Source: Candidatus Latescibacterota bacterium
Lineage (GTDB): Bacteria; Latescibacterota; UBA2968
DNA length: 64,000 nt
NCBI GenBank assembly: GCA_965205975.1
Contig: OZ242195.1
Location: forward strand, 672,001-736,000
Direction of reading: 5' to 3'
Both the position numbers and the translations under genes were made by a program. Of the stretch, positions 4,963 to 61,239 are shown piece by piece. The notes below the pieces were generated by a model. The model did no database searches and was not told the DNA's origin. It was given only the letters and a program-made list of their open reading frames with translations. Every line of letters begins with the position of its first letter. Positions within the stretch are counted from its first letter, which is position 1.

Positions 4963-6356
4963 CTGCATCGTGGCAAAAAAGGTTCCTTGTATGATCAGCA
5001 TTGCTTATCTTTGTGTGTCCGCCAAGCCTTCAGATAAAATTCGATCCCGTTTATAGTGCCTGTCTCATCGAGGTGTCCATGCCCGGTTATTACAAAAAAG
5101 CCAGCCCGTTGCCCATCAGCGTGATGCAACGTAGCGTCTTAGAACACATTGTCCAACGCCATACCAGTCGCCAAGACCATGCCCGCCGTGCGCGTATGAT
5201 CCTGTTAAGCAGTGAAGGGTTAGGCATCGGTCAAGTCAGCGCACAAGTCGGCGCAGATCCAAAGACAGTTTCTACCTGGCGCAAGCGTTGGCTGGCAGGT
5301 TATGAGGCTCTCAAAGCGATGGAAGCCGAGGGCGATAGCCGTGCCTTGTCCGATGCGGTCTTATCCCTCCTATCGGATGCGCCCCGTCCAGGTACGCCTG
5401 TGAGGTATTCGGCACAGGTGGTCACAAAGATTGTGGCCCTCTCCTGTGAAGCCCCCAAAGCGTGTGGGTATCCCATCAGCCATTGGACGCCTCAAGTCTT
5501 GCGTGAAGCAGTCATCGCCCGCGGCATCGTCCCTGATATTTCAGTTCGCAGTGTGGGACGTTTTTTAAAAAGAGGCCGATCTTAAGCCGCATCAAGTCCG
5601 GTATTGGGCGCGTCCCCCTGATGAAGATCAAGAAGCCTTTTACGAGGCAAGTGAAAAGGTCTGTGCCTTATATCAATCTGCTCTTGACCTTCACGAAGAA
5701 GGTGTGCATGTCATCAGCACAGATGAAAAAACGGGCATACAGGCCAAAGAACGTGCCAAACCCACCCTACCGATGAAGCAGGGACGGGTTGAACATCAGG
5801 AGTTTGAATACAAAAGACATGGCACCTGTTGCTTGATTGGCAATTTTGAAGTCGCCACAGGGCAGGTGATTGCCCCAACCTTATCCCTAACACGAACAGA
5901 GAAAGATTTTAAGACGCACATCCAACAGACCTTTGCACAAGACCCAAAAGGTGAGTGGGTCTTTGTCGTGGATCAACTCAATACCCATAAATCGGAAGCC
6001 TTAGTCCGATGGGTGGCTGATGTGTGCGACATTCAAGACGATTTAGGGGAAAAAGGCAAATACGGGATTCTAAAATCTATGCAAACCCGGGCCGACTTCC
6101 TCAGCAATCAAGCCCACCGAGTGCGCTTTGTTTATACCCCTAAACACGCCTCGTGGCTCAATCAGATTGAATGCTGGTTTTCTATTCTCGTGCGACGCCT
6201 ACTCAAAAGAGGGAGTTTTACCTCTGTCCAAGACCTCCAGCAATCGCTTTTGGATTTCATTGCCTTTTTCAACAAAACCATGGCCAAACCGTTTAAATGG
6301 ACCTATACCGGAAGACCCCTTAATCTATAACACCAATGACTTTTGCCACGATGCAC
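4963..6356 (+). mobile_element. IS630-family insertion sequence
   Basis: Terminal inverted repeats CTGCATCGTGGCAAAA / TTTTGCCACGATGCAC (15/16 match); TA duplication at 4961-4962 and 6357-6358; encodes an HTH plus DDE transposase. Confidence 0.95.
5079..6330 (+). CDS. IS630 transposase, two ORFs joined by a probable programmed +1 shift
   Basis: OrfA 5079-5585 (HTH; RRARMILL, WRKRW, DAPRPGTP, SHWT). +1 frame from about 5572 (EADLKPHQVRYW...STDEKTGIQ...VDQLNTHKS...WLNQIECWF, DDE triad). T6A5 run at 5561-5571. Confidence 0.9.
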
Positions 6357-17573: not shown

Positions 17574-18008
17574 TCAGTGAAATTCTTTTGGACGGCGCAG
17601 GACGCGTCGCCTCCTTCGAGGTGGGAAAGTCACGGTTTGTGTATAAGGGTGCCAGTCGGTTGCGATGTCCCAACTTTCTCGCTGCTGGGGGAAGGTGTAC
17701 AGCACAATGCCGCGATCTTTCGGAGGACGCCACCGTCCCTGACCGAGCAACTGATCTACCACTGCTGCAAATTCTGCCGTCATGGCTTCTCGAAAGATGC
17801 GAGAGTTTCTCACGGATCGGCTGACGCCACCCGGGTATTTTCGCCAGGTCGCAGGATCATCCCGCAATACGCCCTCTCTCTCCAGCCGACGCCAGATCGT
17901 TGATTCCATCTCAGCGGCGTCTTCGGCTGTAAAGGCGCGCACCTTGACGTAGCCTCGGGTGCAGAGCTGCTCAAGGTCTTGTTCGTTCAGCGGTCCGTCA
18001 GTCGTCAT
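17574..18008 (-). pseudogene. Truncated phytanoyl-CoA dioxygenase (PhyH)-family gene
   Basis: LNEQDLEQLCTRGYVKV...VVDQLLG...W...TFP...DWH matches the PhyH N-terminal half. Similarity ends at the HxD motif (WHP, no Asp) and the distal His is absent. Confidence 0.6.
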
Positions 18009-18062
18009 GGAATTGCCTTTCTATATCGGTGAATAGAATGAATTCGCCACTGATGTCAATCA

Positions 18063-18167
18063 TGGCAGAGGGTGTGGGGATCGAACCCATATACGGGATA
18101 TCCCACAGGATACCCGTAGCCCTCGGTTTGGAAGCCTCGGGGCCAGCACCACTGGCTCTCACCCCCT
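18063..18167 (-). tRNA. Non-canonical tRNA, 8/4 allo-tRNA-like, long variable arm, 8-nt anticodon loop CUUCCAAA
   Basis: Minus strand: AGGGGGTG AGA GCCAG TGGTG CTGGC C CCGAGG CTTCCAAA CCGAGG GC TACGGGTATCC TGTG GGATATCCCGTA TA TGGG TTCGATC CCCA CACCCTCT G CCA. All four arms fold; T-loop TTCGA, D-loop GG and encoded CCA are present. Confidence 0.85.
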
Positions 18168-18241
18168 GCTCAATAATACGACGATGTCATAAAATGGAAT
18201 GTTTCGGATGGGATAGGGAGGGATTCATATTCCCTGTCTTT

Positions 18242-19378
18242 CTATGGCGTATCGATCCACCAGTGATACACGTTCGTCAAGTGCTGTTCATACGCATGCG
18301 ACGCCTGCAGTAGCAGCCGATTCCGCTTGTGTGGATTCAGCGATCCGACCACGATGCTGTTCGAATATGCTGCGATTCCCTTCTCGCGCATCCTCAAGTA
18401 GATGCCGTCATCCCAGGCAAAGCCATCTCGTGAAGCATATAGAACAAAGTGACCTTTTTCCTCTTTCTTACCCTGCAAGAATGCACTGCGTCCGTGCATG
18501 AAATAACAGCCGTTTAGCACGGCCATCTGAGGGTTTCGGATCTTCTTTTTAAAGTGTGCGATCCTTGGTTCGGACCAGGTCCGACCATCGTCGTCGCTCA
18601 CCACATAGTCCATCGTGTGCTCAGCCTTGCTGTTGTATATGTACACAATGATGTTTCCGTTATCGCGTATCCCCATGGTTCCATACGATTTCCCAATGGT
18701 GTCGAAGGGAAGCTCGCTGCGCTTCTCGAAGGTCCGGCCGCCGTCTCGGCTCACGTGCAACTCGTACACATGCTCGGGCTTGTTGCCCAGGAAATTGATC
18801 TCGTTGTCGTTCCTGAAGTGGAGCGCGAGTATCTCTCCGTTGTGATACTTTGCATCGTAGAGCCTGCCCCGACTGTCGCACAGTGCAGATGGCTCACGCC
18901 ATGTGTACCCTCCATCCGGACTGCTGATGTATGTCGGCACCTGAAATTGCCTCCAAATGACATTGGCCGTGATATCACATACAAGAAAAAAGAGGACGAT
19001 TTCACCCTTGTCCGTTCGAATTGCCTTCTCGGCGAAGGCGGACAATTTCTTGCTGGTCTTCCCGCTCTGTCCGGTGTCGAACAAGTTTTTCGAATAGGCG
19101 ACCACGTTCCGATCGCTCCAGGTCTCGCCGCTGTTTTCCGATCGCTTGTATTCCATCCAGCCTCTAGCCGAGTGGCCCTTGCCAGACTTCTTCGGGTTGT
19201 GGCTTTCGGCGGAGCAGTTCGGATAGAAGGCGAGGATCTTCCCGTCCTCATACTCCACCAGTGCGTGCCCGAGATTTCCACCTCTTTTTGCCGGGGAGTG
19301 ATCGACGAAGAGAATCCCATCGTTCGGTGGGTCTTTGGGGGTGATCTCATAATCTGCTATGTTTGGGTTCGCGTCCAC
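18242..19378 (-). CDS. BNR/Asp-box sialidase-like beta-propeller protein
   Basis: Five Asp-boxes: SENSGETW, SPDGGYTW, SRDGGRTF, SDDDGRTW, SRDGFAW; GTG start with RBS GGGAGG. Confidence 0.85.
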   Translation of the reverse strand: MDANPNIADYEITPKDPPNDGILFVDHSPAKRGGNLGHALVEYEDGKILAFYPNCSAESHNPKKSGKGHSARGWMEYKRSENSGETWSDRNVVAYSKNLFDTGQSGKTSKKLSAFAEKAIRTDKGEIVLFFLVCDITANVIWRQFQVPTYISSPDGGYTWREPSALCDSRGRLYDAKYHNGEILALHFRNDNEINFLGNKPEHVYELHVSRDGGRTFEKRSELPFDTIGKSYGTMGIRDNGNIIVYIYNSKAEHTMDYVVSDDDGRTWSEPRIAHFKKKIRNPQMAVLNGCYFMHGRSAFLQGKKEEKGHFVLYASRDGFAWDDGIYLRMREKGIAAYSNSIVVGSLNPHKRNRLLLQASHAYEQHLTNVYHWWIDTP

Positions 19379-56357: not shown

Positions 56358-57932
56358 ATGCGCTTTTTCAACACCGCTGGCCCTATCAAGCCCGAAATGC
56401 ACTATTGCATTCCGCCGCTGGAACGTCTTAACATGGACGAGGTGCATGCCCTGATCCGGGATGCGAAATATTTCGTCCTGCACGCGCCCCGGCAGACGGG
56501 CAAGACTTCTGCCCTGCTGACACTGTGCGACTTGCTCAACGCGGAGGGCACCTACCGTTGCGTGTACGTCAATGTGGAAGGCGGGCAAGCCGCACGAGAA
56601 GATGTGGAACAGGTAACGCGCACCTTTCTGGGTGAATTGGCATCTCGGGCGCGTTCAGTAGGTGACGAATTTTTGGACGAGATCTGGTTCGACATCCTGG
56701 CGAAATACGGGCCTCACGTTGCCTTGCGCGAGGCGTTGACGCGCTGGGCACAGGCTGCCCCGAAGCCATTGGTGTTGCTCATTGACGAGATCGATTCTCT
56801 AATCGGCGATTCTCTGCTGTCCGTGCTACGACAGTTGCGGGCAGGCTACGACCTGCGTCCAGAGGGTTTTCCACAAAGCGTAATATTATGCGGCGTGCGC
56901 GATGTGCGCGACTACCGCATCCAATCCACTGCAGAGAACGCGATCATCGCCGGTGGCAGTGCGTTCAACATTCGCGCCGAGTCCCTGCGCCTGGGGGACT
57001 TCTCACAGGATGAAGTATTCGCTCTCATCTCACAGCATACGGCAGAAACAGGGCAGGCATTCACAGCCGAGGCACTGGAGACGATCTGGACACAGACCCA
57101 GGGGCAACCGTGGCTGGTGAACGCACTGGCTTATGAAGCCTGCTTTAAGAACAAGACCGGGCAGGATCGCAGCCAGCCCATCACAGCCGAGGCGATATAC
57201 GACGCCCGCGAGCAACTCATCCTGCGCCGGGAGATACACCTCGACCAGTTAGCTGACAAGCTCAAGGAAAACCGCGTGCGGCGTGTCGTTGAGCCGCTAC
57301 TGAGTGGGGGTGAGGAACGCCGCTTTATTGACCGCGACATAGAGTATGTGCGCGATCTCGGCCTGGTGGCTCAGGAGCGTCCCATGCGTATCGCCAATCC
57401 CATCTACGCCGAGGTCGTTCCCCGCGAACTGACGTGGGTGATCCAGGAGGAGTTTGAGCAGGAAACCGCATGGTATGTCACTGATGATGGCAACCTGGAC
57501 GTGGTTGCACTGATGACCGCGTTTCAGACCTTTTTCCGCGAACATTCGGAACACTGGGTTGAAAGGTTTCAGTACAGGGAAGCCGGTCCACAGTTGCTGT
57601 TGCAGGCATTTCTCCAGCGCATTGTGAACAGCGGTGGACGCATTGAACGGGAGTATGGTTTGGGACGTGGACGCACTGATCTGCTCATCTTATGGCCGCA
57701 GGATGATCAGACGCGCAAAATCGTTATTGAGTGTAAATTGCTCCACAAGAGTCTGGAACAGACCATTGCCGAGGGGCTGGAACAGACCGCGGAGTACATG
57801 GATCGGTGCGCTGCAGAGGCTGGCCATCTGGTGATTTTTGACCGTCGCGCAGGCAGGCGTTGGGAGGATAAGGTGTTCCACCGTCGCCATACGTCTGAAG
57901 GTGGTGTTGAGATAGACGTATGGGGCATGTGA
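56358..57932 (+). CDS. AAA ATPase with C-terminal PD-(D/E)XK nuclease-like domain
   Basis: MRFFNTAGP, Walker A APRQTGKTS, Walker B LLIDEID, TQGQPWLVN; C-term REYGLGRGRTDL...IVIECK. Confidence 0.9.
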   Translation: MRFFNTAGPIKPEMHYCIPPLERLNMDEVHALIRDAKYFVLHAPRQTGKTSALLTLCDLLNAEGTYRCVYVNVEGGQAAREDVEQVTRTFLGELASRARSVGDEFLDEIWFDILAKYGPHVALREALTRWAQAAPKPLVLLIDEIDSLIGDSLLSVLRQLRAGYDLRPEGFPQSVILCGVRDVRDYRIQSTAENAIIAGGSAFNIRAESLRLGDFSQDEVFALISQHTAETGQAFTAEALETIWTQTQGQPWLVNALAYEACFKNKTGQDRSQPITAEAIYDAREQLILRREIHLDQLADKLKENRVRRVVEPLLSGGEERRFIDRDIEYVRDLGLVAQERPMRIANPIYAEVVPRELTWVIQEEFEQETAWYVTDDGNLDVVALMTAFQTFFREHSEHWVERFQYREAGPQLLLQAFLQRIVNSGGRIEREYGLGRGRTDLLILWPQDDQTRKIVIECKLLHKSLEQTIAEGLEQTAEYMDRCAAEAGHLVIFDRRAGRRWEDKVFHRRHTSEGGVEIDVWGM

Positions 57933-58023
57933 TCCGTTGCGTCTTGCTCATCTGTTGATGGCTGCAAGAAGGTTTAAATATTATCTCAATGCTCTATTGG
58001 CGATGCCACAATAGGAGATCATC

Positions 58024-59268
58024 ATGCTCAAGAAACTGACTGTCCGAAACTTCAAATCTCTCAACGACGTCACGGTAGAGTTGCCCCGTTTTGCGGTTCT
58101 TTTTGGACCCAATGCCGTGGGTAAGAGCAATCTGCTTGATGCCATCCAAGCTCTTTCATTGATGGGTAACGCACCCACATTATCCGAAGCACTTGGACAA
58201 TCGTCCCCGATACGTGGCTACCCCTTTGAAGCGCTCTCATACGCTCCTGATGGGTTGCCTGGACTGTTCCGCAAAGGGTCCGCACAGTTTACGTTAGAGG
58301 CCGATCTGACTACTGACAGAGAGAACTATCGGTATCGTATTGAGCCACGAATTGATCTCAGATCGGGCCAACTCAGCATTACTGACGAATATCTGGCTCA
58401 ACTTGATGTCTCCGGAAAACCGAAGGGAACCGCAGCTATTGAGCGCTTGGGATCGCTTCTCCACATCCGCCCCCAAGCTGAAACGGATTATATACGGCAG
58501 GAGCAGGTTGGTTTGAACCACTCTATTTTGTCAGACCGAAGTCTGGGACCCAAGGCATACCCCTGGTTGGAGCAAGTGCGCAATGAGTTGCTGAACTGGC
58601 GTACCTACTATTTCGAGCCATGGATGAAAATGCGGGAGGAGCAATCTCCTTCCGACGTGTTCGACATTGGTGTTCACGGGGAGTACATTGCATCATTTTT
58701 GTATAAGCTTCGGGCCGAGTATCCCAAACACTTTGATGCTGTATTTCGAACATTGCGTTCAATCGTACCAAGTATTGAGACGCTGAATGTCGAATTGACC
58801 GAACGACGTGGTACGTTAGAGCTGTGGATCCAACAGGCAGGCATAGAGTACTCCTCTCGAGTCTTATCTGAAGGAACATTGAGAGTCCTCGGACTTTGCG
58901 CCATGGCTGTTAATCCTTGGGGCGGGTCGCTCGTAGCACTGGAGGAACCAGAAAACGGCGTTCATCCGCGCCGGATCGATCTGATTGCTCAGCTTCTGTT
59001 CTCTATAACTGAACAATACCAGCGTCAGGTTGTCGTCACGACACACTCACCGCTATTTGTTGATGCAATCCTGAAGGTGAAGCGCGAAGCAGAATCGAGC
59101 GATATTGGCCTCTTCAGTGTTCGTCTTACAACACAGGGGACAGTCGTCAAGCCTTTTGACGTTACAGGTCCGATGTTTAGGGATCAAGAAATCGCGGAGG
59201 CACTTGCGAACCGGACAGAAGACAGCATGTTTGAAAGTCTGATATTGCGGGGGCTTATTGATGAGTAA
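58024..59268 (+). CDS. ABC-type ATPase (AAA_21/AbiEii/OLD-like)
   Basis: VRNFKSL, GPNAVGKSN, LSEGTLR signature, LEEPENGVHP, TTHSP. Confidence 0.92.
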   Translation: MLKKLTVRNFKSLNDVTVELPRFAVLFGPNAVGKSNLLDAIQALSLMGNAPTLSEALGQSSPIRGYPFEALSYAPDGLPGLFRKGSAQFTLEADLTTDRENYRYRIEPRIDLRSGQLSITDEYLAQLDVSGKPKGTAAIERLGSLLHIRPQAETDYIRQEQVGLNHSILSDRSLGPKAYPWLEQVRNELLNWRTYYFEPWMKMREEQSPSDVFDIGVHGEYIASFLYKLRAEYPKHFDAVFRTLRSIVPSIETLNVELTERRGTLELWIQQAGIEYSSRVLSEGTLRVLGLCAMAVNPWGGSLVALEEPENGVHPRRIDLIAQLLFSITEQYQRQVVVTTHSPLFVDAILKVKREAESSDIGLFSVRLTTQGTVVKPFDVTGPMFRDQEIAEALANRTEDSMFESLILRGLIDE

Positions 59269-59890
59269 TCAGGTTATAGTCGATCTCTTTGTCGAAGACC
59301 GTGCACACGAAAGTTTTCTGGAACCACTGTTGATGCGAATTGCTCGAGAACAGGATCAGGATATCGAAATGGAGATACGCGTACTTTCTGCCAGAGGGGG
59401 TCACAGTCGTGCAATCGCGGAATTCAAGGGTTATCAACAAACAATCGTCACGAAGAGTCGCTTGGGCAATGAGCCCGCAGACATAGTGGTGGTCACCATT
59501 GACGGCAATTGTTTGACCTTCCCGGTTGCACGAAGGCATATACTGGAAGCCACTGTTCCAATGTTGAAAGACCGAGTGGTCATAGCATGTCCGGATCCAC
59601 ACATTGAGCGGTGGTACGTCGCGGATCCTGATTCGTTCGAGACTATCGTGGGTTATCGTCCCAGTGTTGGTGACAAAAAGTGTGCCCGGGGCCACTATAA
59701 GCAGGTTCTGACGACCGCAATTCGACAGGCAGGCCATCTGGTTACACTCGGCGGAGTCGAATTCGCTCCGGAATTGGTAGAGGGCATGAGCTTTTATCGA
59801 GCTGGGAGGAATGATTCATCACTAAAGGCGTTCTTGGACGATTTACGAGCCATGTTACGGCAGGTGACACGAGATAGGGACGAGAATTGA
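59261..59890 (+). CDS. TOPRIM-like (DUF4276-like) partner of the ATPase
   Basis: Overlaps the ATPase stop; FVED (acidic residue after strand 1), VVVTIDGN, HIERWY. Confidence 0.7.
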   Translation: MSNQVIVDLFVEDRAHESFLEPLLMRIAREQDQDIEMEIRVLSARGGHSRAIAEFKGYQQTIVTKSRLGNEPADIVVVTIDGNCLTFPVARRHILEATVPMLKDRVVIACPDPHIERWYVADPDSFETIVGYRPSVGDKKCARGHYKQVLTTAIRQAGHLVTLGGVEFAPELVEGMSFYRAGRNDSSLKAFLDDLRAMLRQVTRDRDEN

Positions 59891-60021
59891 GGGTTATCGA
59901 GACATCATCACGGATTTTCTAAAAACAGAACTCGAGACCGTTGGTCTATCTGATCAACCAGATGTTGGAGGACCTTCTCGAAGGTGACAAAAAGTCTTTG
60001 AGATGCGGTAGAGGAGATCGC

Positions 60022-61239
60022 ATGAACCACACCGAGTTGTTTGACCTGATCCGCAATGGCGAGAATTCTATCCTGGAGTTCAAACGGGACGATATTCAGA
60101 ATCACGTTTTGGCCAAGGAACTTGTGGCTTTTCTCAATCTGGAAGGGGGTACAGTTCTGCTCGGTGTCGAAGATGATGGGCGTATTTCCGGTACGACCCG
60201 GGACCGTCTTGAGGAGTGGGTGAGCGAGCTTTGCCGCGTCAAGATCGATCCGCCGACTGTCCCGGTTCTCTTGTGGGTAAAAGATGCCGAGCCAAATCGG
60301 GATGTGCTCGCCATTTCCATCTCACGCGGTCCAAATAAGCCCTATGCGTGCGTCCACAGCGGTCGCAGAACCTACTATATCCGTGTTGGTAATACCTCTC
60401 GAGAAGCGAGCCGAGAGGAGCTCGAGCGGATGTACCAGGCGTCGGGCCACTTTCGATACGGTTTGAAGCCTGTGCCAGGTGCGAGTCTCGACGCTTTTGA
60501 CCTTCGCCGTCTGCGCGATTACCTGATTCAGGTGATTGACGGGCTGGCCCCAGAAACAGATGATATCGAGGGCTGGGAAACGCTGTTGCGAAATATCGAA
60601 CTGATGACCGTCTCTCATGCACAGCACGTTGCGACTATTGATGGGCTGCTTCTCTTTGGGAGAAATCCGAGCCGGTACGTGCCTCAATCCGGGATCCGCG
60701 CGATCTGCTATCCGGGACCTGATCCCGATTACGCAACCCGCGCCGATGAGGACCTGCGCGGCCCGATGGTTCCGCTGAAAGCCGCCAATGGAAGCATCGT
60801 TGAAATCGGCCTTGTTGAGCAGGCGTGGGATTTTGTACGTCGCAACACGACGCCAACGGCCCATATTGAGCGTGGTCGGAGGATTGATCGATGGGAATAT
60901 CCGGAAATTGTGATTCGAGAAGCCGTGGTGAACGCGCTCGTTCACCGCGATTACAGCATTTCAGGCACGGACATCATGCTGGCTATCTATTCTGATCGTC
61001 TCGAGATTCAGAGTCCCGGCAGATTGCCCAATACAGTGACAATAGATGGGATGAAATCGGGCATGCGCTACGCTCGCAATCAGACGCTGGTCAATATCAT
61101 GCGCGACTACGGCTACGTTGACGCGCGAGGCATGGGCGTGCGGAACAAAATTATTCCAGGGATGCAGGCCCACAATGGCACTGAGCCTGATTTTATCGAG
61201 GAAGAAAATCGATTTACCGTGCGGCTTTGGAAAGAGTAA
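60022..61239 (+). CDS. Schlafen/AlbA_2 domain plus HATPase_c_4 (RecG C-terminal-like) protein
   Basis: GENSILEFK, ELVAFLNLEGG...GVEDDG, YYIRVG; REAVVNALVHRDY, EIQSPG, RN, RGMG. Confidence 0.9.
   Translation: MNHTELFDLIRNGENSILEFKRDDIQNHVLAKELVAFLNLEGGTVLLGVEDDGRISGTTRDRLEEWVSELCRVKIDPPTVPVLLWVKDAEPNRDVLAISISRGPNKPYACVHSGRRTYYIRVGNTSREASREELERMYQASGHFRYGLKPVPGASLDAFDLRRLRDYLIQVIDGLAPETDDIEGWETLLRNIELMTVSHAQHVATIDGLLLFGRNPSRYVPQSGIRAICYPGPDPDYATRADEDLRGPMVPLKAANGSIVEIGLVEQAWDFVRRNTTPTAHIERGRRIDRWEYPEIVIREAVVNALVHRDYSISGTDIMLAIYSDRLEIQSPGRLPNTVTIDGMKSGMRYARNQTLVNIMRDYGYVDARGMGVRNKIIPGMQAHNGTEPDFIEEENRFTVRLWKE

What the first reader, a model, noticed from the sequence alone, without database searches (positions are those of the whole stretch)
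18063..18167. tRNA gene outside the ORF track with a non-canonical 8/4 (allo-tRNA-like) cloverleaf
Seen: a 105-nt minus-strand sequence folds into a complete cloverleaf ending in G-CCA. It has an 8-bp acceptor stem (AGGGGGUG/CACCCUCU), a 4-bp T-stem (UGGG/CCCA) around UUCGAUC, a tRNA-Sec-like 5-6-bp D-stem with a small GG loop, a 6-pair anticodon stem and a 27-nt variable arm (11 bp plus a bulge). Forcing a 7/5 fold creates an A.C mismatch and a 4-nt linker. Known: canonical tRNAs are 7/5 and bacterial tRNA-Sec is 8/5; 8/4 and 9/3 folds define the allo-tRNA/selC* classes (Mukai et al. 2017, NAR), whose native roles are largely unknown. No selA/selB/selD or synthetase gene is in the window. Inference: a stand-alone recoding or regulatory tRNA in an accessory region. 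Intact pairing in all arms argues for selection on structure.
Basis: partly seen in the sequence, partly recalled or inferred. Interest (0 to 1): 0.9.

Follow-up and report, generated by a model that had tools for sequence, protein, structure and literature searches.

The report
Odd 8/4 tRNA-like gene, Trp-like loop
This is a real, conserved gene for an unusually shaped tRNA-like RNA, one of a small family found in a group of sponge-associated bacteria, whose anticodon loop is one base too long, so it is probably not an ordinary decoding tRNA.

Summary
The 105-nt minus-strand cloverleaf at 18063-18167 is real: 8-bp acceptor, 4-bp T stem, 27-nt variable arm, G73 and encoded CCA. The anticodon stem has a tandem G.A/A.G centre, and the loop has 8 nt (CUUCCAAA), so no standard anticodon exists. 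ARAGORN and Rfam gathering thresholds miss the element; the Rfam tRNA-Sec model gives 34.6 bits (gathering score 47). It is not selC: the genome has a canonical selC, selA and selB elsewhere.

Full-length copies occur in 12 of 21 genomes of the genus. No substitution among them breaks a stem. With four metagenomic relatives, 14 pairs show changes on both sides. Those relatives keep an 8-nt loop NNUCCAAN, which is the tRNA-Trp loop plus one base.

The genome holds two more 8/4 tRNA-likes with the same acceptor (A1-U72, G3.U70, G73) but 4-nt and 12-nt "anticodon" loops. This family was found in 19 of 29 genomes of one Latescibacterota family and in 0 of 121 other genomes of the phylum.

Verdict: a new variant of the allo-tRNA kind. 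It is most likely a chargeable tRNA mimic that does not decode normally (0.45). A recoding adaptor for UGG, UGGA or UGA is the main rival (0.33).

The parts
18063..18167 (-). Gene for the 105-nt 8/4 tRNA-like RNA ('E-type')
   Evidence: Sequence; MFE cloverleaf; Rfam tRNA-Sec 34.6 bits; own model R1 125.8 bits; covariation
18160..18167 (-). Acceptor 5' strand AGGGGGUG (RNA positions 1-8); A1, G3 and G5 are identity-relevant positions
   Evidence: Pairs with 18067-18074; pairs 1-6 and 8 are invariant in 9 of 9 E-like and 21 of 21 A-D-type sequences
18141..18157 (-). D arm (RNA 11-27): A11.C27 plus 5 Watson-Crick pairs, loop UGGUG holding the GG
   Evidence: 4 D-stem pairs show changes on both sides among 9 E-like sequences
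18121..18140 (-). Anticodon-arm equivalent (RNA 28-47): stem with tandem G30.A45/A31.G44
   Evidence: the central two positions are unpaired in 8 of 9 and 7 of 9 E-like sequences, and the flanking pairs covary
18127..18134 (-). 8-nt loop CUUCCAAA (RNA 34-41) presenting U-CCA-A
   Evidence: relatives have AUUCCAAA, AUUCCAAA, CAUCCAAA and CCUCCAAG; the genome's tRNA-Trp loop is CUCCAAA
18092..18118 (-). 27-nt variable arm (RNA 50-76): 11 bp, bulged U70, loop UGUG
   Evidence: 7 of its 11 pairs show changes on both sides among 9 E-like sequences
18075..18089 (-). T arm (RNA 79-93): 4-bp stem UGGG/CCCA, loop UUCGAUC
   Evidence: the first T pair is U-A in 8 and A-U in 1 of 9 E-like sequences, and A-U or G-C in types A-D
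18063..18074 (-). Acceptor 3' strand CACCCUCU, discriminator G, encoded CCA
   Evidence: 40 of 48 ARAGORN tRNAs of this genome also encode CCA
18168..18218 (-). Conserved 51-nt upstream flank that travels with the gene (possible promoter or leader)
   Evidence: In 14 of 16 other loci the homology to this locus starts at this point; no sigma-70 consensus match
18039..18062 (-). Conserved 3' flank UGAUUGACAUCAGUGGCGAAUUCA that travels with the gene
   Evidence: unique in the window
17574..18008 (-). Downstream ORF: a PhyH-like gene shortened to 144 aa by a roughly 470-540-nt deletion at 17649
   Evidence: Homologues are 268-281 aa; junction; 29 of 30 Atlas feature hits fall in one set of PhyH-carrying clusters; contigs of three RNA-library runs carry other sequence before 17649
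18242..19378 (-). Upstream neighbour: BNR/sialidase-like gene, same strand, stop codon 74 nt before the tRNA-like gene

Best explanation
The element is a real, selectively maintained gene for a tRNA-shaped RNA of the 8/4 'allo-tRNA' type. It belongs to a gene family that, in the genomes searched, is confined to one family of sponge-associated Latescibacterota. All members share an invariant acceptor arm (A1-U72, G2-C71, G3.U70, G4-G6:C, G73, encoded CCA), a GG D loop and a UUCRANY T loop. Their 'anticodon' arms differ greatly.

In this subfamily the anticodon arm has a non-Watson-Crick centre. Its 8-nt loop displays U-CCA-A, which is the tRNA-Trp loop with one extra base on the 5' side.

My committed reading is as follows. 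The RNA is made, 5'-trimmed at A1, and probably aminoacylated through its acceptor arm. It is not an ordinary triplet decoder. It acts beside the normal decoding path as a chargeable mimic of tRNA-Trp (a sensor, a decoy or an amino-acid carrier). Partners would recognise it through the constant acceptor/T minihelix and the UCCAA loop.

Shown here: the fold, the 8/4 register, selection on structure and on the loop motif, the existence of the family, and its distribution. Inferred: transcription and processing, charging and its amino acid (Ala, Ser and Trp determinants are all partly present), and the off-ribosome role.
For: Fold and 8/4 register.

Selection on sequence: the 105 nt are identical in 5 other genomes of the genus, whose aligned flanks are 93-98% identical.

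Selection on structure: among 7 distinct genus copies no substitution breaks a pair. Two D-stem pairs are compensated, and one variable-arm pair runs GC/GU/AU. With 4 metagenomic relatives added (9 distinct sequences), 92.8% of cells pair, against 31-56% when partners are slid. Fourteen pairs change on both sides, a figure reached by 0 of 500 shuffles (this alignment was fitted to the model).

Loop: the motif NNUCCAAN is kept in all 5 divergent lineages while the stem around it changes (CCCAAGG/CUUUGGG is fully paired in L206).

Arguments against standard decoding: the loop has 8 nt, and 9 nt in the +G sister copies (5 of 7 distinct sequences). The stem centre is unpaired in 7-8 of 9 sequences. 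Paralogues with exactly the same acceptor arm have 4-, 6- and 11-12-nt loops and yet are conserved and covary (97.9% of cells paired, 9 pairs changed on both sides, G3.U70 in 21 of 21).

Chargeability: G3.U70 is the AlaRS determinant. A long variable arm plus G73 is the SerRS determinant (Mukai 2017; Giege and Eriani 2023). G73, the first acceptor pair and the CCA anticodon are TrpRS determinants. tRNA-Trp is the only canonical tRNA of this genome that starts with A1.
Against: No direct evidence of transcription, ends or charging. Contigs from RNA libraries cover the gene (depth about 6 against 2-3.6 for its neighbours in two runs), but contigs cannot show a transcript and DNA may be present in those libraries.

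The conserved U-CCA-A is exactly what a real anticodon loop would look like. A relative with the same acceptor arm (L204, 95 nt) has a canonical 7-nt CUUCAAA loop, so part of the family may decode.

The sequence identity across species could reflect recent transfer of a mobile module rather than purifying selection.

Four of 16 strong copies are damaged: two carry a T-loop insertion, one lacks its 5' end and one lacks its 3' end. The gene is therefore dispensable.

No partner protein is consistently adjacent.
Confidence: 0.45

Rival explanations
1. It is a working ribosomal adaptor with an expanded anticodon loop. One version is an allo-type tRNA that reads UGG with anticodon CCA (extra base 5' of U33). 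Other versions read the quadruplet UGGA with UCCA, or read UGA near-cognately. It would insert Ser or Ala (missense, frameshift or opal suppression), or Trp (a structurally odd isoacceptor).
For: U-CCA-A(A) is conserved in 5 of 5 E-like lineages and equals the last six bases of the genome's own tRNA-Trp loop in 4 of them. A family member (L204, 95 nt) carries a canonical 7-nt CUUCAAA loop with UCA. Opal-reading allo-tRNAs of type 'tRNA2' are listed by Mukai et al. (supplement). Allo-tRNAs with 8/4 branches work in E. coli translation. 8-nt loops are compatible with decoding in yeast mitochondrial tRNA-Thr (passage) and in +1 frameshift suppressors such as SufB2 (abstract start only). All tRNA hallmarks are present.
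Against: The loop size is not fixed: 8 nt, or 9 nt in 5 of 7 distinct genus sequences. There are two non-Watson-Crick positions in the middle of the anticodon stem in most lineages. Paralogues with the same scaffold cannot decode. Copies with a 26-nt T-loop insertion persist in two species and in an RNA library. No gene needing a frameshift or readthrough was seen next to it; the downstream ORF is whole in 6 relatives. I did not look genome-wide. Proteome-wide UGG to Ser or Ala would be costly (inference).
Confidence: 0.33
2. It is a decaying or selfish remnant: a former allo-tRNA (opal-type or Trp-type) whose anticodon arm was damaged. It would persist as a small mobile or hitch-hiking module without cellular function.
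For: The same ~180-nt module (-51 to about +25) sits between different genes in different genomes, with sharp homology borders. Several genomes hold 2 or more copies or fragments. Damaged copies exist: 4 of 16 strong matches, plus a 14-nt stump in G015. It was not found at 79 bits or more in 8 of 21 genus genomes. Mukai et al. describe allo-tRNA pseudogenes linked to transposable elements.
Against: No stem-breaking substitution occurs in 7 distinct full-length sequences. There are 14 pairs changed on both sides across 9 E-like sequences, including 7 in the long variable arm. The 'damaged' features (8-nt loop, mismatched stem centre) are themselves conserved in lineages that differ at many other positions. 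No terminal repeats or transposase travel with it.
Confidence: 0.12
3. It is mainly a DNA-level or RNA-processing signal. It could be an attachment or recombination site at which accessory genes are exchanged. It could also be a tRNA-like 'punctuation' cut by RNase P inside a same-strand gene array.
For: It lies between same-strand genes, with 74 nt to the upstream stop codon and 54 nt to the downstream start codon. Gene order around it is shuffled among relatives, with breakpoints at or inside it: -51, the T loop, +79 and +14. An RNA-library contig runs through it into the next ORF (17969-18197).
Against: No integrase or recombinase was found among the 56 window ORFs scanned. No direct repeat of its 3' part occurs in the genome. 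A processing signal would not need a conserved UCCAA loop, G73-CCA or an invariant G3.U70.
Confidence: 0.05
4. It is a second selenocysteine tRNA (a selC variant).
For: The best Rfam family is tRNA-Sec. It has an 8-bp acceptor, a long D stem, G73, and a loop that resembles CUUCAAA.
Against: 34.6 bits is below the gathering score of 47. The acceptor branch is 8/4 = 12 bp, not 8/5 = 13 bp. There is no UCA in a 7-nt loop. The genome has a canonical selC (70.1 bits) as well as selA and selB elsewhere.
Confidence: 0.02

Closest known systems
(8/4) allo-tRNAs (Mukai et al. 2017, Nucleic Acids Res 45:2776; PMC5389517. I read the abstract, Results sections, supplementary text and searched the supplementary table)
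   Same: 12-bp acceptor branch split 8/4; tRNA-Sec-like long D stem; long variable arm; G73; some members with G3:U70; found through the tRNA-Sec covariance model; missed by standard tRNA finders. Sequence layout closely parallels their 'major' GCG and GUC types.
   Different: The loop has 8 nt and the stem centre is mismatched. The variable arm is 27 nt. The host is Latescibacterota from sponges, not Clostridia, Proteobacteria or Acidobacteria. This acceptor (AGGGGGTG), this loop (TTCCAAA) and any UGG-codon entry are absent from their table of about 730 rows (0 hits).
Irregular and polycistronic tRNAs of soil metatranscriptomes (tRNA0/1/2, including allo-tRNA(UCA) 'tRNA2') and inactive allo-tRNA(UAU) (same paper)
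   Same: Tandem arrays of irregular 8/4 tRNA-like genes. Some members were shown or suspected not to serve in translation. The authors suggested regulatory roles and links to toxin-antitoxin systems or transposons. Here there are arrays of 1-3 genes, one relative lies next to a HepT-like toxin gene and one next to TnpB.
   Different: The acceptor arm here is different and invariant. The loops have 4-12 nt instead of 7. The main locus keeps its gene neighbours (PhyH, then the tRNA-likes, then an AP_endonuc_2 gene) across the genus.
Bacterial tRNA-Sec (Rfam RF01852)
   Same: 8-bp acceptor, long D stem, 6-position anticodon stem, long variable arm, G73; it is the best Rfam match.
   Different: 4-bp rather than 5-bp T stem; no UCA anticodon; score below the gathering threshold; a true selC plus selA and selB exist elsewhere.
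Bacterial tRNA-Trp
   Same: A1-U72, G2-C71, G4-C69, G5-C68, G73 and a loop ending UCCAAA. The genome's tRNA-Trp has loop CUCCAAA, A1-U72 and G73. The identity set is taken from Giege and Eriani 2023, passages read.
   Different: Class II shape with a 27-nt variable arm; 8/4 branch; 8-nt loop; G3.U70 instead of G3-C70.
tRNAs with enlarged anticodon loops: +1 frameshift suppressors (SufB2 and others) and yeast mitochondrial tRNA-Thr(UAG)
   Same: 8-nt anticodon loop in an otherwise tRNA-shaped molecule (passage; listing and abstract start only).
   Different: Those are 7/5 class I tRNAs with Watson-Crick anticodon stems and proven decoding. Here decoding is untested and the loop size varies between 8 and 9 nt.
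tRNA-like domain of tmRNA (recalled, not looked up here)
   Same: Acceptor/T-arm module with G3.U70 and CCA but no anticodon, charged by AlaRS. This is a possible analogy for the family members with 4-12-nt loops.
   Different: No mRNA-like part is present. The genome has its own tmRNA.

Membership tests
allo-tRNA (8/4) sensu Mukai et al. 2017 | 12-bp acceptor branch arranged as an 8-bp acceptor stem plus a 4-bp T stem | tested here: met
   MFE fold. The 7/5 alternative needs A78.C94. In the family, pair 7 covaries (UA/CG/UG) and the first T pair covaries (AU/GC), while the base 5' of the T stem never pairs with C of pair 8.
allo-tRNA (8/4) sensu Mukai et al. 2017 | Long variable arm and discriminator G73 or U73 (Ser-type identity) | tested here: met
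   27-nt arm with 11 bp, covarying at 7 pairs; G102 is G73.
allo-tRNA (8/4) sensu Mukai et al. 2017 | tRNA-Sec-like D arm (long stem, tetraloop) | tested here: inconclusive
   5 Watson-Crick pairs plus A11.C27 with a 5-nt loop, or 6 pairs with a 3-nt loop.
allo-tRNA (8/4) sensu Mukai et al. 2017 | Extended (6-bp) anticodon stem closing a 7-nt loop with a nameable anticodon | tested here: not met
   4 Watson-Crick pairs plus 2 non-Watson-Crick positions; 8-nt loop (9 nt in +G copies).
allo-tRNA (8/4) sensu Mukai et al. 2017 | Activity as an adaptor in a bacterial translation system | not testable with these tools
   Needs reporter assays like those.
tRNA-Sec (Rfam RF01852; bacterial 8/5) | Score at or above the Rfam gathering threshold of 47 bits | tested here: not met
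   34.6 bits. The true selC of the genome scores 70.1 bits.
tRNA-Sec (Rfam RF01852; bacterial 8/5) | 13-bp acceptor branch (8/5) and UCA anticodon | tested here: not met
   8/4 branch; loop CUUCCAAA.
Canonical tRNA (7/5 cloverleaf) | Detected by ARAGORN or by Rfam tRNA at its gathering score; 7-nt anticodon loop | tested here: not met
   ARAGORN at lowered thresholds gave only misfolded calls.
Bacterial tRNA-Trp (identity set as in Giege and Eriani 2023) | G73, first pair A1-U72, C34-C35-A36, and G2-C71/G3-C70/G4-C69/G5-C68 | tested here: inconclusive
   All are present except G3-C70 (here G3.U70), and CCA sits in an 8-nt loop. Charging by TrpRS was not tested.
Bacterial tRNA-Trp (identity set as in Giege and Eriani 2023) | Class I, 7/5 architecture | tested here: not met
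   27-nt variable arm, 8/4 branch.
AlaRS substrates (tRNA-Ala, tmRNA) | G3.U70 wobble pair in the acceptor stem | tested here: met
   G3.U99. It is invariant in 9 of 9 E-like and 21 of 21 A-D sequences. The discriminator is G, not the A73 of this genome's tRNA-Ala genes. Charging was not tested.

The most novel reading that the evidence does not exclude
A group of sponge-associated Latescibacterota maintains a private set of 8/4 tRNA-shaped RNAs with one fixed acceptor identity (A1-U72, G3.U70, G73). Within it, the E-type is a natural adaptor with an expanded loop. It would be charged by SerRS or AlaRS, or by TrpRS or its lineage-specific paralogue. It would read UGG, the quadruplet UGGA, or UGA. 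That would make it a naturally maintained recoding or frameshifting tRNA. Its paralogues with 4-12-nt loops would act as amino-acid carriers or regulators that never enter the ribosome.
Probability: 0.2. Interest if true: 0.9.

Novelty: new variant of a known kind. Interest (0 to 1): 0.62.

Why it matters
The native roles of allo-tRNAs are unknown. This case provides three things:
- A covarying subfamily whose enlarged, Trp-like anticodon loop is itself conserved.
- Sister genes with the same acceptor arm whose loops (4-12 nt) cannot be anticodon loops.
- A clear phylogenetic frame: one bacterial family, with complete genomes available.

If the RNA decodes, it would be a naturally maintained tRNA with an expanded loop. 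If it does not, the family would be a set of chargeable tRNA mimics with a shared identity, comparable in logic to the tRNA-like domain of tmRNA.

In practice, standard annotation (ARAGORN, Rfam gathering thresholds) misses all three such genes in this genome.

Tried and rejected
- Integron-like cassette array, with the element or its flanks acting as a repeated recombination site. No repeat of either flank occurs in the window. The upstream hairpin motif seen in relatives occurs in this genome only inside a repetitive coding region. Intergenic gaps are too short. Rejected.
- Pairing of leader with trailer to form a larger RNA. The 189-nt fold keeps the cloverleaf, adds only two pairs to the acceptor stem (leader GC with G73-C74), and scores z -1.55. 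Rejected.
- Sigma-70 promoter or intrinsic terminator next to the gene. No promoter-like site was found, and the only terminator-like hairpin is on the other strand.
- Dedicated SerRS or AlaRS paralogue. One serS and one alaS pass the cut-off.
- Second TrpRS as partner. It exists, but the neighbouring bacterial family, which lacks the tRNA-like family, also has TrpRS duplicates. It remains a lead only.
- Phage origin. 0 matches of the family pattern in viral contigs.
- The genome-contig scan used a 3'-end pattern that was too general. Most of the 80 loci held in sequence are ordinary tRNA-Ser genes. Only L090, L108 and L112 belong to this family.
- RNA-library contigs cover the gene, but they are contigs. 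They give no ends, strand or level, and DNA carry-over is not excluded. The uncovered stretch 18238-18278 and other gaps prove nothing.
- Earlier findings of this scan: nothing was returned by place or by sequence.
- Shared neighbour hypothesis. PhyH-type genes lie next to both loci, but the two proteins are not alike (best BLASTP E 0.034), and the window has four more PhyH genes.
Full report
**1. What is there**

The minus strand of window 18063-18167 reads AGGGGGUG...CACCCUCU-G-CCA. Its minimum-free-energy fold is a cloverleaf with these parts:
- an 8-bp acceptor stem (1-8/94-101, with G3.U99);
- a D hairpin with a GG loop;
- an anticodon-arm equivalent;
- a 27-nt variable arm (11 bp, one bulged U);
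- a 4-bp T stem (79-82/90-93) closing UUCGAUC;
- G, then an encoded CCA.

A 7/5 register would require A78.C94.

First, the anticodon stem is C28-G47, C29-G46, G30.A45, A31.G44, G32-C43, G33-C42, so its centre is a tandem G.A/A.G. Second, the loop has 8 nt (CUUCCAAA). Third, the first D pair is A11.C27.

Folding energy alone does not distinguish the element from shuffles (z -1.51; 17 of 200 fold as well). ARAGORN finds no tRNA in the window or at this place in the genome. No Rfam family reaches its gathering score in the window. With relaxed thresholds the only tRNA-type match is tRNA-Sec: 34.6 bits against a gathering score of 47, E 3.2e-5. Over the whole 5.56-Mb genome that model gives 18 matches at E <= 0.001. 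Sixteen are ARAGORN tRNAs. The other two are this element and a paralogue. A match of this size is therefore specific for tRNA-shaped genes here.

**2. It is not selC and not a missing standard tRNA**

The genome has 48 ARAGORN tRNAs and a tmRNA. Among them is a canonical selC at C1:3425281-3425378 (70.1 bits). It also has adjacent selA (582 bits) and selB (388 bits) genes. None of the 56 window ORFs scanned with Pfam is a sel gene or a synthetase. Forty of the 48 tRNAs encode CCA, so the encoded CCA is normal for this genome.

**3. Copies in relatives, and selection**

I built a covariance model (R1) from five distinct copies and searched the 31 genomes of the bacterial family. It gave 16 matches of 79 bits or more, all in the window's genus, in 13 of 21 genomes including the window's own. 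Of these 16:
- 12 are full length (105 or 106 nt; 123.8-128.5 bits), one per genome;
- 2 carry a 26-nt hairpin insertion in the T loop;
- 1 lacks the first 9 nt;
- 1 has its 3' third replaced.

No match of 79 bits or more was found in the 10 genomes of the other five genera.

In five other genomes the 105 nt are identical to the window's copy. Their aligned neighbourhoods are 93.2% (2052 nt), 94.9% (1568 nt), 94.9%, 97.7% and 98.4% (570 nt each) identical.

Among the 7 distinct sequences no substitution breaks a pair. Two D-stem pairs are compensated, one variable-arm pair runs G-C/G.U/A-U, and the remaining changes lie in loops. On this small set the covariation measures are only modestly above the shuffles (20-30 of 500 shuffles reach them).

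**4. A family, not a stand-alone gene**

The genome holds two more tRNA-like genes that ARAGORN misses. They lie in tandem at C1:5229528-5229613 (86 nt) and C1:5229416-5229508 (93 nt) on the minus strand. They have the same acceptor arm (AGGGGGYG/CRCCCUCU, G3.U70, G73, CCA), a 6-bp D stem with a GG loop, a short class-II variable arm and a 4-bp T stem. Their 'anticodon' arms end in a 4-nt loop and a 12-nt loop.

Relatives add versions with 6-nt and 11-nt loops. On 21 distinct sequences of these types, 97.9% of cells pair, against 52-59% when partners are slid. Nine pairs change on both sides (0 of 500 shuffles reach this). Acceptor pairs 1-6 and 8, including G3.U70, never vary. Pair 7 (UA/CG/UG) and the first T pair (AU/GC) covary, which fits the 8/4 register.

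A model of these types (R2) found them in 19 of 29 other genomes of the window's family. It found them in 0 of 121 genomes of 13 other families in an even sample of the phylum. One further copy lies in a genome of the neighbouring family (L023).

In the genus the tandem locus keeps its gene neighbours: a PhyH gene, then 1-3 tRNA-likes, then an AP_endonuc_2 gene on the opposite strand.

**5. More distant E-like relatives**

A pattern scan of metagenome contigs returned 8 contigs. Four sequences on them are E-like (56.6-71.1 bits with R1). Their loops are AUUCCAAA, AUUCCAAA, CAUCCAAA and CCUCCAAG. Like the window's CUUCCAAA, all have 8 nt and all contain UCCAA.

The stem around the loop changes. 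In L206 it is fully paired (CCCAAGG/CUUUGGG). In L208 it has U-A where the window has C-G. The two central positions are unpaired in 8 of 9 and 7 of 9 sequences.

Over the 9 distinct E-like sequences, 92.8% of cells pair (31-56% when slid). Fourteen pairs change on both sides: 7 in the variable arm, 4 in the D stem, 2 in the anticodon stem and 1 in the T stem. No shuffle of 500 reaches this. This alignment was fitted to the model, which favours the model's structure.

One further relative with the same acceptor arm (L204, 95 nt) has a canonical 7-nt loop CUUCAAA. No match was found in viral contigs.

**6. What the sequence says about identity**

The constant acceptor arm carries G3.U70, the AlaRS determinant. 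Allo-tRNAs with G3:U70 insert Ala, and those that also have G73 insert Ser as well (Mukai et al., Results). The long variable arm with G73 is the main SerRS determinant (Giege and Eriani 2023, passages).

A1-U72, G73 and C34-C35-A36, with G2-C71, G4-C69 and G5-C68, belong to the bacterial tryptophan identity set. The genome's own tRNA-Trp is its only canonical tRNA that starts with A1. It has G73 and the loop CUCCAAA. The E-type loop can therefore be read as U33-CCA-A37 with one extra base on the 5' side. G3.U70 in place of G3-C70 departs from the Trp set. Which enzyme, if any, charges the RNA cannot be decided here.

The genome has one serS and one alaS. It has two TrpRS-family genes. In the window's genome the second one has an in-frame internal deletion of about 85 residues. 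The deletion removes the KMSKS motif and most of the helical domain. Long forms exist in other species of the genus. Such paralogues also occur in the neighbouring family, which lacks the tRNA-like family. I treat this as a lead only.

**7. Context, host and expression**

The gene lies in a same-strand run of small accessory genes. These include a BNR/sialidase-like gene, a sulfatase, an MFS transporter, a 2'-5' RNA ligase-like gene, GNAT, NUDIX, glyoxalase, epimerase, methyltransferase and HAD genes.

Among relatives the neighbours differ. In 14 of 16 other loci the homology begins exactly 51 nt upstream of the gene. It ends either about 25-36 nt after CCA or continues through a PhyH-like gene. 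In the window that PhyH-like gene is cut to 144 aa by a deletion at 17649.

Near-identical family members lie on records titled Candidatus Latescibacterota (L090, L108, L112). Most public runs that hold the stretch are labelled sponge metagenomes.

Contigs from two sponge RNA libraries cover the gene (17983-18164 and 17969-18197; depth about 6 against 2.2-3.6 for neighbouring pieces). A coral RNA library holds the T-loop-insertion form at depth 30-51. These are contigs, so transcription, transcript ends and strand are not shown.

**8. Reading**

The fold, the 8/4 register, selection on structure and on the UCCAA loop, and the lineage-specific family are shown. Everything after transcription is inference.

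I put 0.45 on a chargeable tRNA mimic that is not an ordinary decoder. The reasons are the variable 8-9-nt loop size, the mismatched stem centre, and conserved paralogues on the same scaffold that cannot decode.

I put 0.33 on a recoding adaptor for UGG, UGGA or UGA. The reasons are that the conserved loop looks exactly like an anticodon loop with U33 and A37, that a relative has a canonical UCA loop, and that 8-nt loops can decode.

I put 0.12 on a decaying or selfish module, 0.05 on a recombination or processing signal, and 0.02 on a second tRNA-Sec.

**9. Comparison with what is known, and limits**

The element works like, and is built like, the (8/4) allo-tRNAs and irregular tRNAs of Mukai et al. 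2017. It fails one of their defining features, a 7-nt loop with a nameable anticodon. It is absent from their table: 0 hits for its acceptor, its loop or any UGG entry. It also comes from a phylum they did not list. I therefore file it as a new variant of a known kind.

My literature searches found no description of this family. They cover only the held library.

Limits:
- the E-like sample is small (9 distinct sequences);
- model E-values are rough;
- related genomes are not independent;
- there are no raw RNA reads.

Noticed in passing
G000:C1:5229416-5229613 (outside the window; locus L056:1501-1698): Two further 8/4 tRNA-like genes in tandem, 86 nt with a 4-nt 'anticodon' loop and 93 nt with a 12-nt loop. 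They share the window element's acceptor arm and are missed by ARAGORN at default settings.
   Followed up: yes
L024:327-458 and L025:1128-1259 (two other species); also RNA-library run X17 at window 18080/18081: Copies of the E-type gene with a 26-nt hairpin-forming insertion in the T loop (between UUCG and AUC), otherwise intact. The same form appears in contigs of a coral metatranscriptome library at depth 30-51. Part of the insert resembles the 11-nt 3' trailer seen in other copies.
   Followed up: partly
G000:C1:2470713-2471612 (locus L209:2711-3613, minus strand): A second TrpRS-family gene. In this genome and in at least 8 others of the genus it has an in-frame internal deletion of about 85 residues that removes KMSKS and most of the helical (anticodon-binding) domain. 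Long forms of 384-385 codons with KMGKS exist in other species.
   Followed up: partly
window 17574-18008 (-), junction at 17649: The PhyH-like gene downstream of the tRNA-like gene is shortened to 144 aa by a deletion of roughly 470-540 nt, compared with 268-281-aa homologues. Contigs of three RNA-library runs carry the longer form.
   Followed up: partly
window 5001-5585 and 5704-6330 (+): A transposase in two ORFs (HTH_32/HTH_23 followed by DDE_3) among sulfatase genes. By recall this looks like the IS630 type; no call classified it.
   Followed up: no
window 1628-38692: At least 10 sulfatase genes and 4 PhyH-type dioxygenase genes, plus a PSD/PSCyt protein (DUF1585/1587/1588/1592/1595) next to a DUF1552 protein, a fucosidase and a catalase-peroxidase-like gene. 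This looks like a polysaccharide-degrading accessory region.
   Followed up: no
window 56358-61239 (+): A run of defence-like genes: an AAA_22/AAA_35 ATPase, an AAA_21 (AbiEii-type) ATPase, an unassigned 210-aa ORF, and a Schlafen AlbA_2 plus HATPase_c_4 protein.
   Followed up: no
L051:1738-3066 and L046:942-1412: In other genomes a TnpB (OrfB_IS605/Cas12f-like TNB) gene and a HepT-like toxin gene lie directly beside family members. This echoes the toxin-antitoxin and transposon links reported for allo-tRNAs.
   Followed up: no
L088 (a Pseudomonadota MAG; 4 pattern matches in 1301 nt): One complete tRNA-Ser gene followed by three copies of its last ~28 nt, each preceded by a shared sequence that is not tRNA. 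These may be serial integration scars.
   Followed up: no
L204, L205, L203, L208 (metagenome contigs): Arrays of 2-3 irregular tRNA-like genes with the same acceptor arm. One (95 nt) has a canonical CUUCAAA loop, and one (111 nt) has an extra stem.
   Followed up: partly
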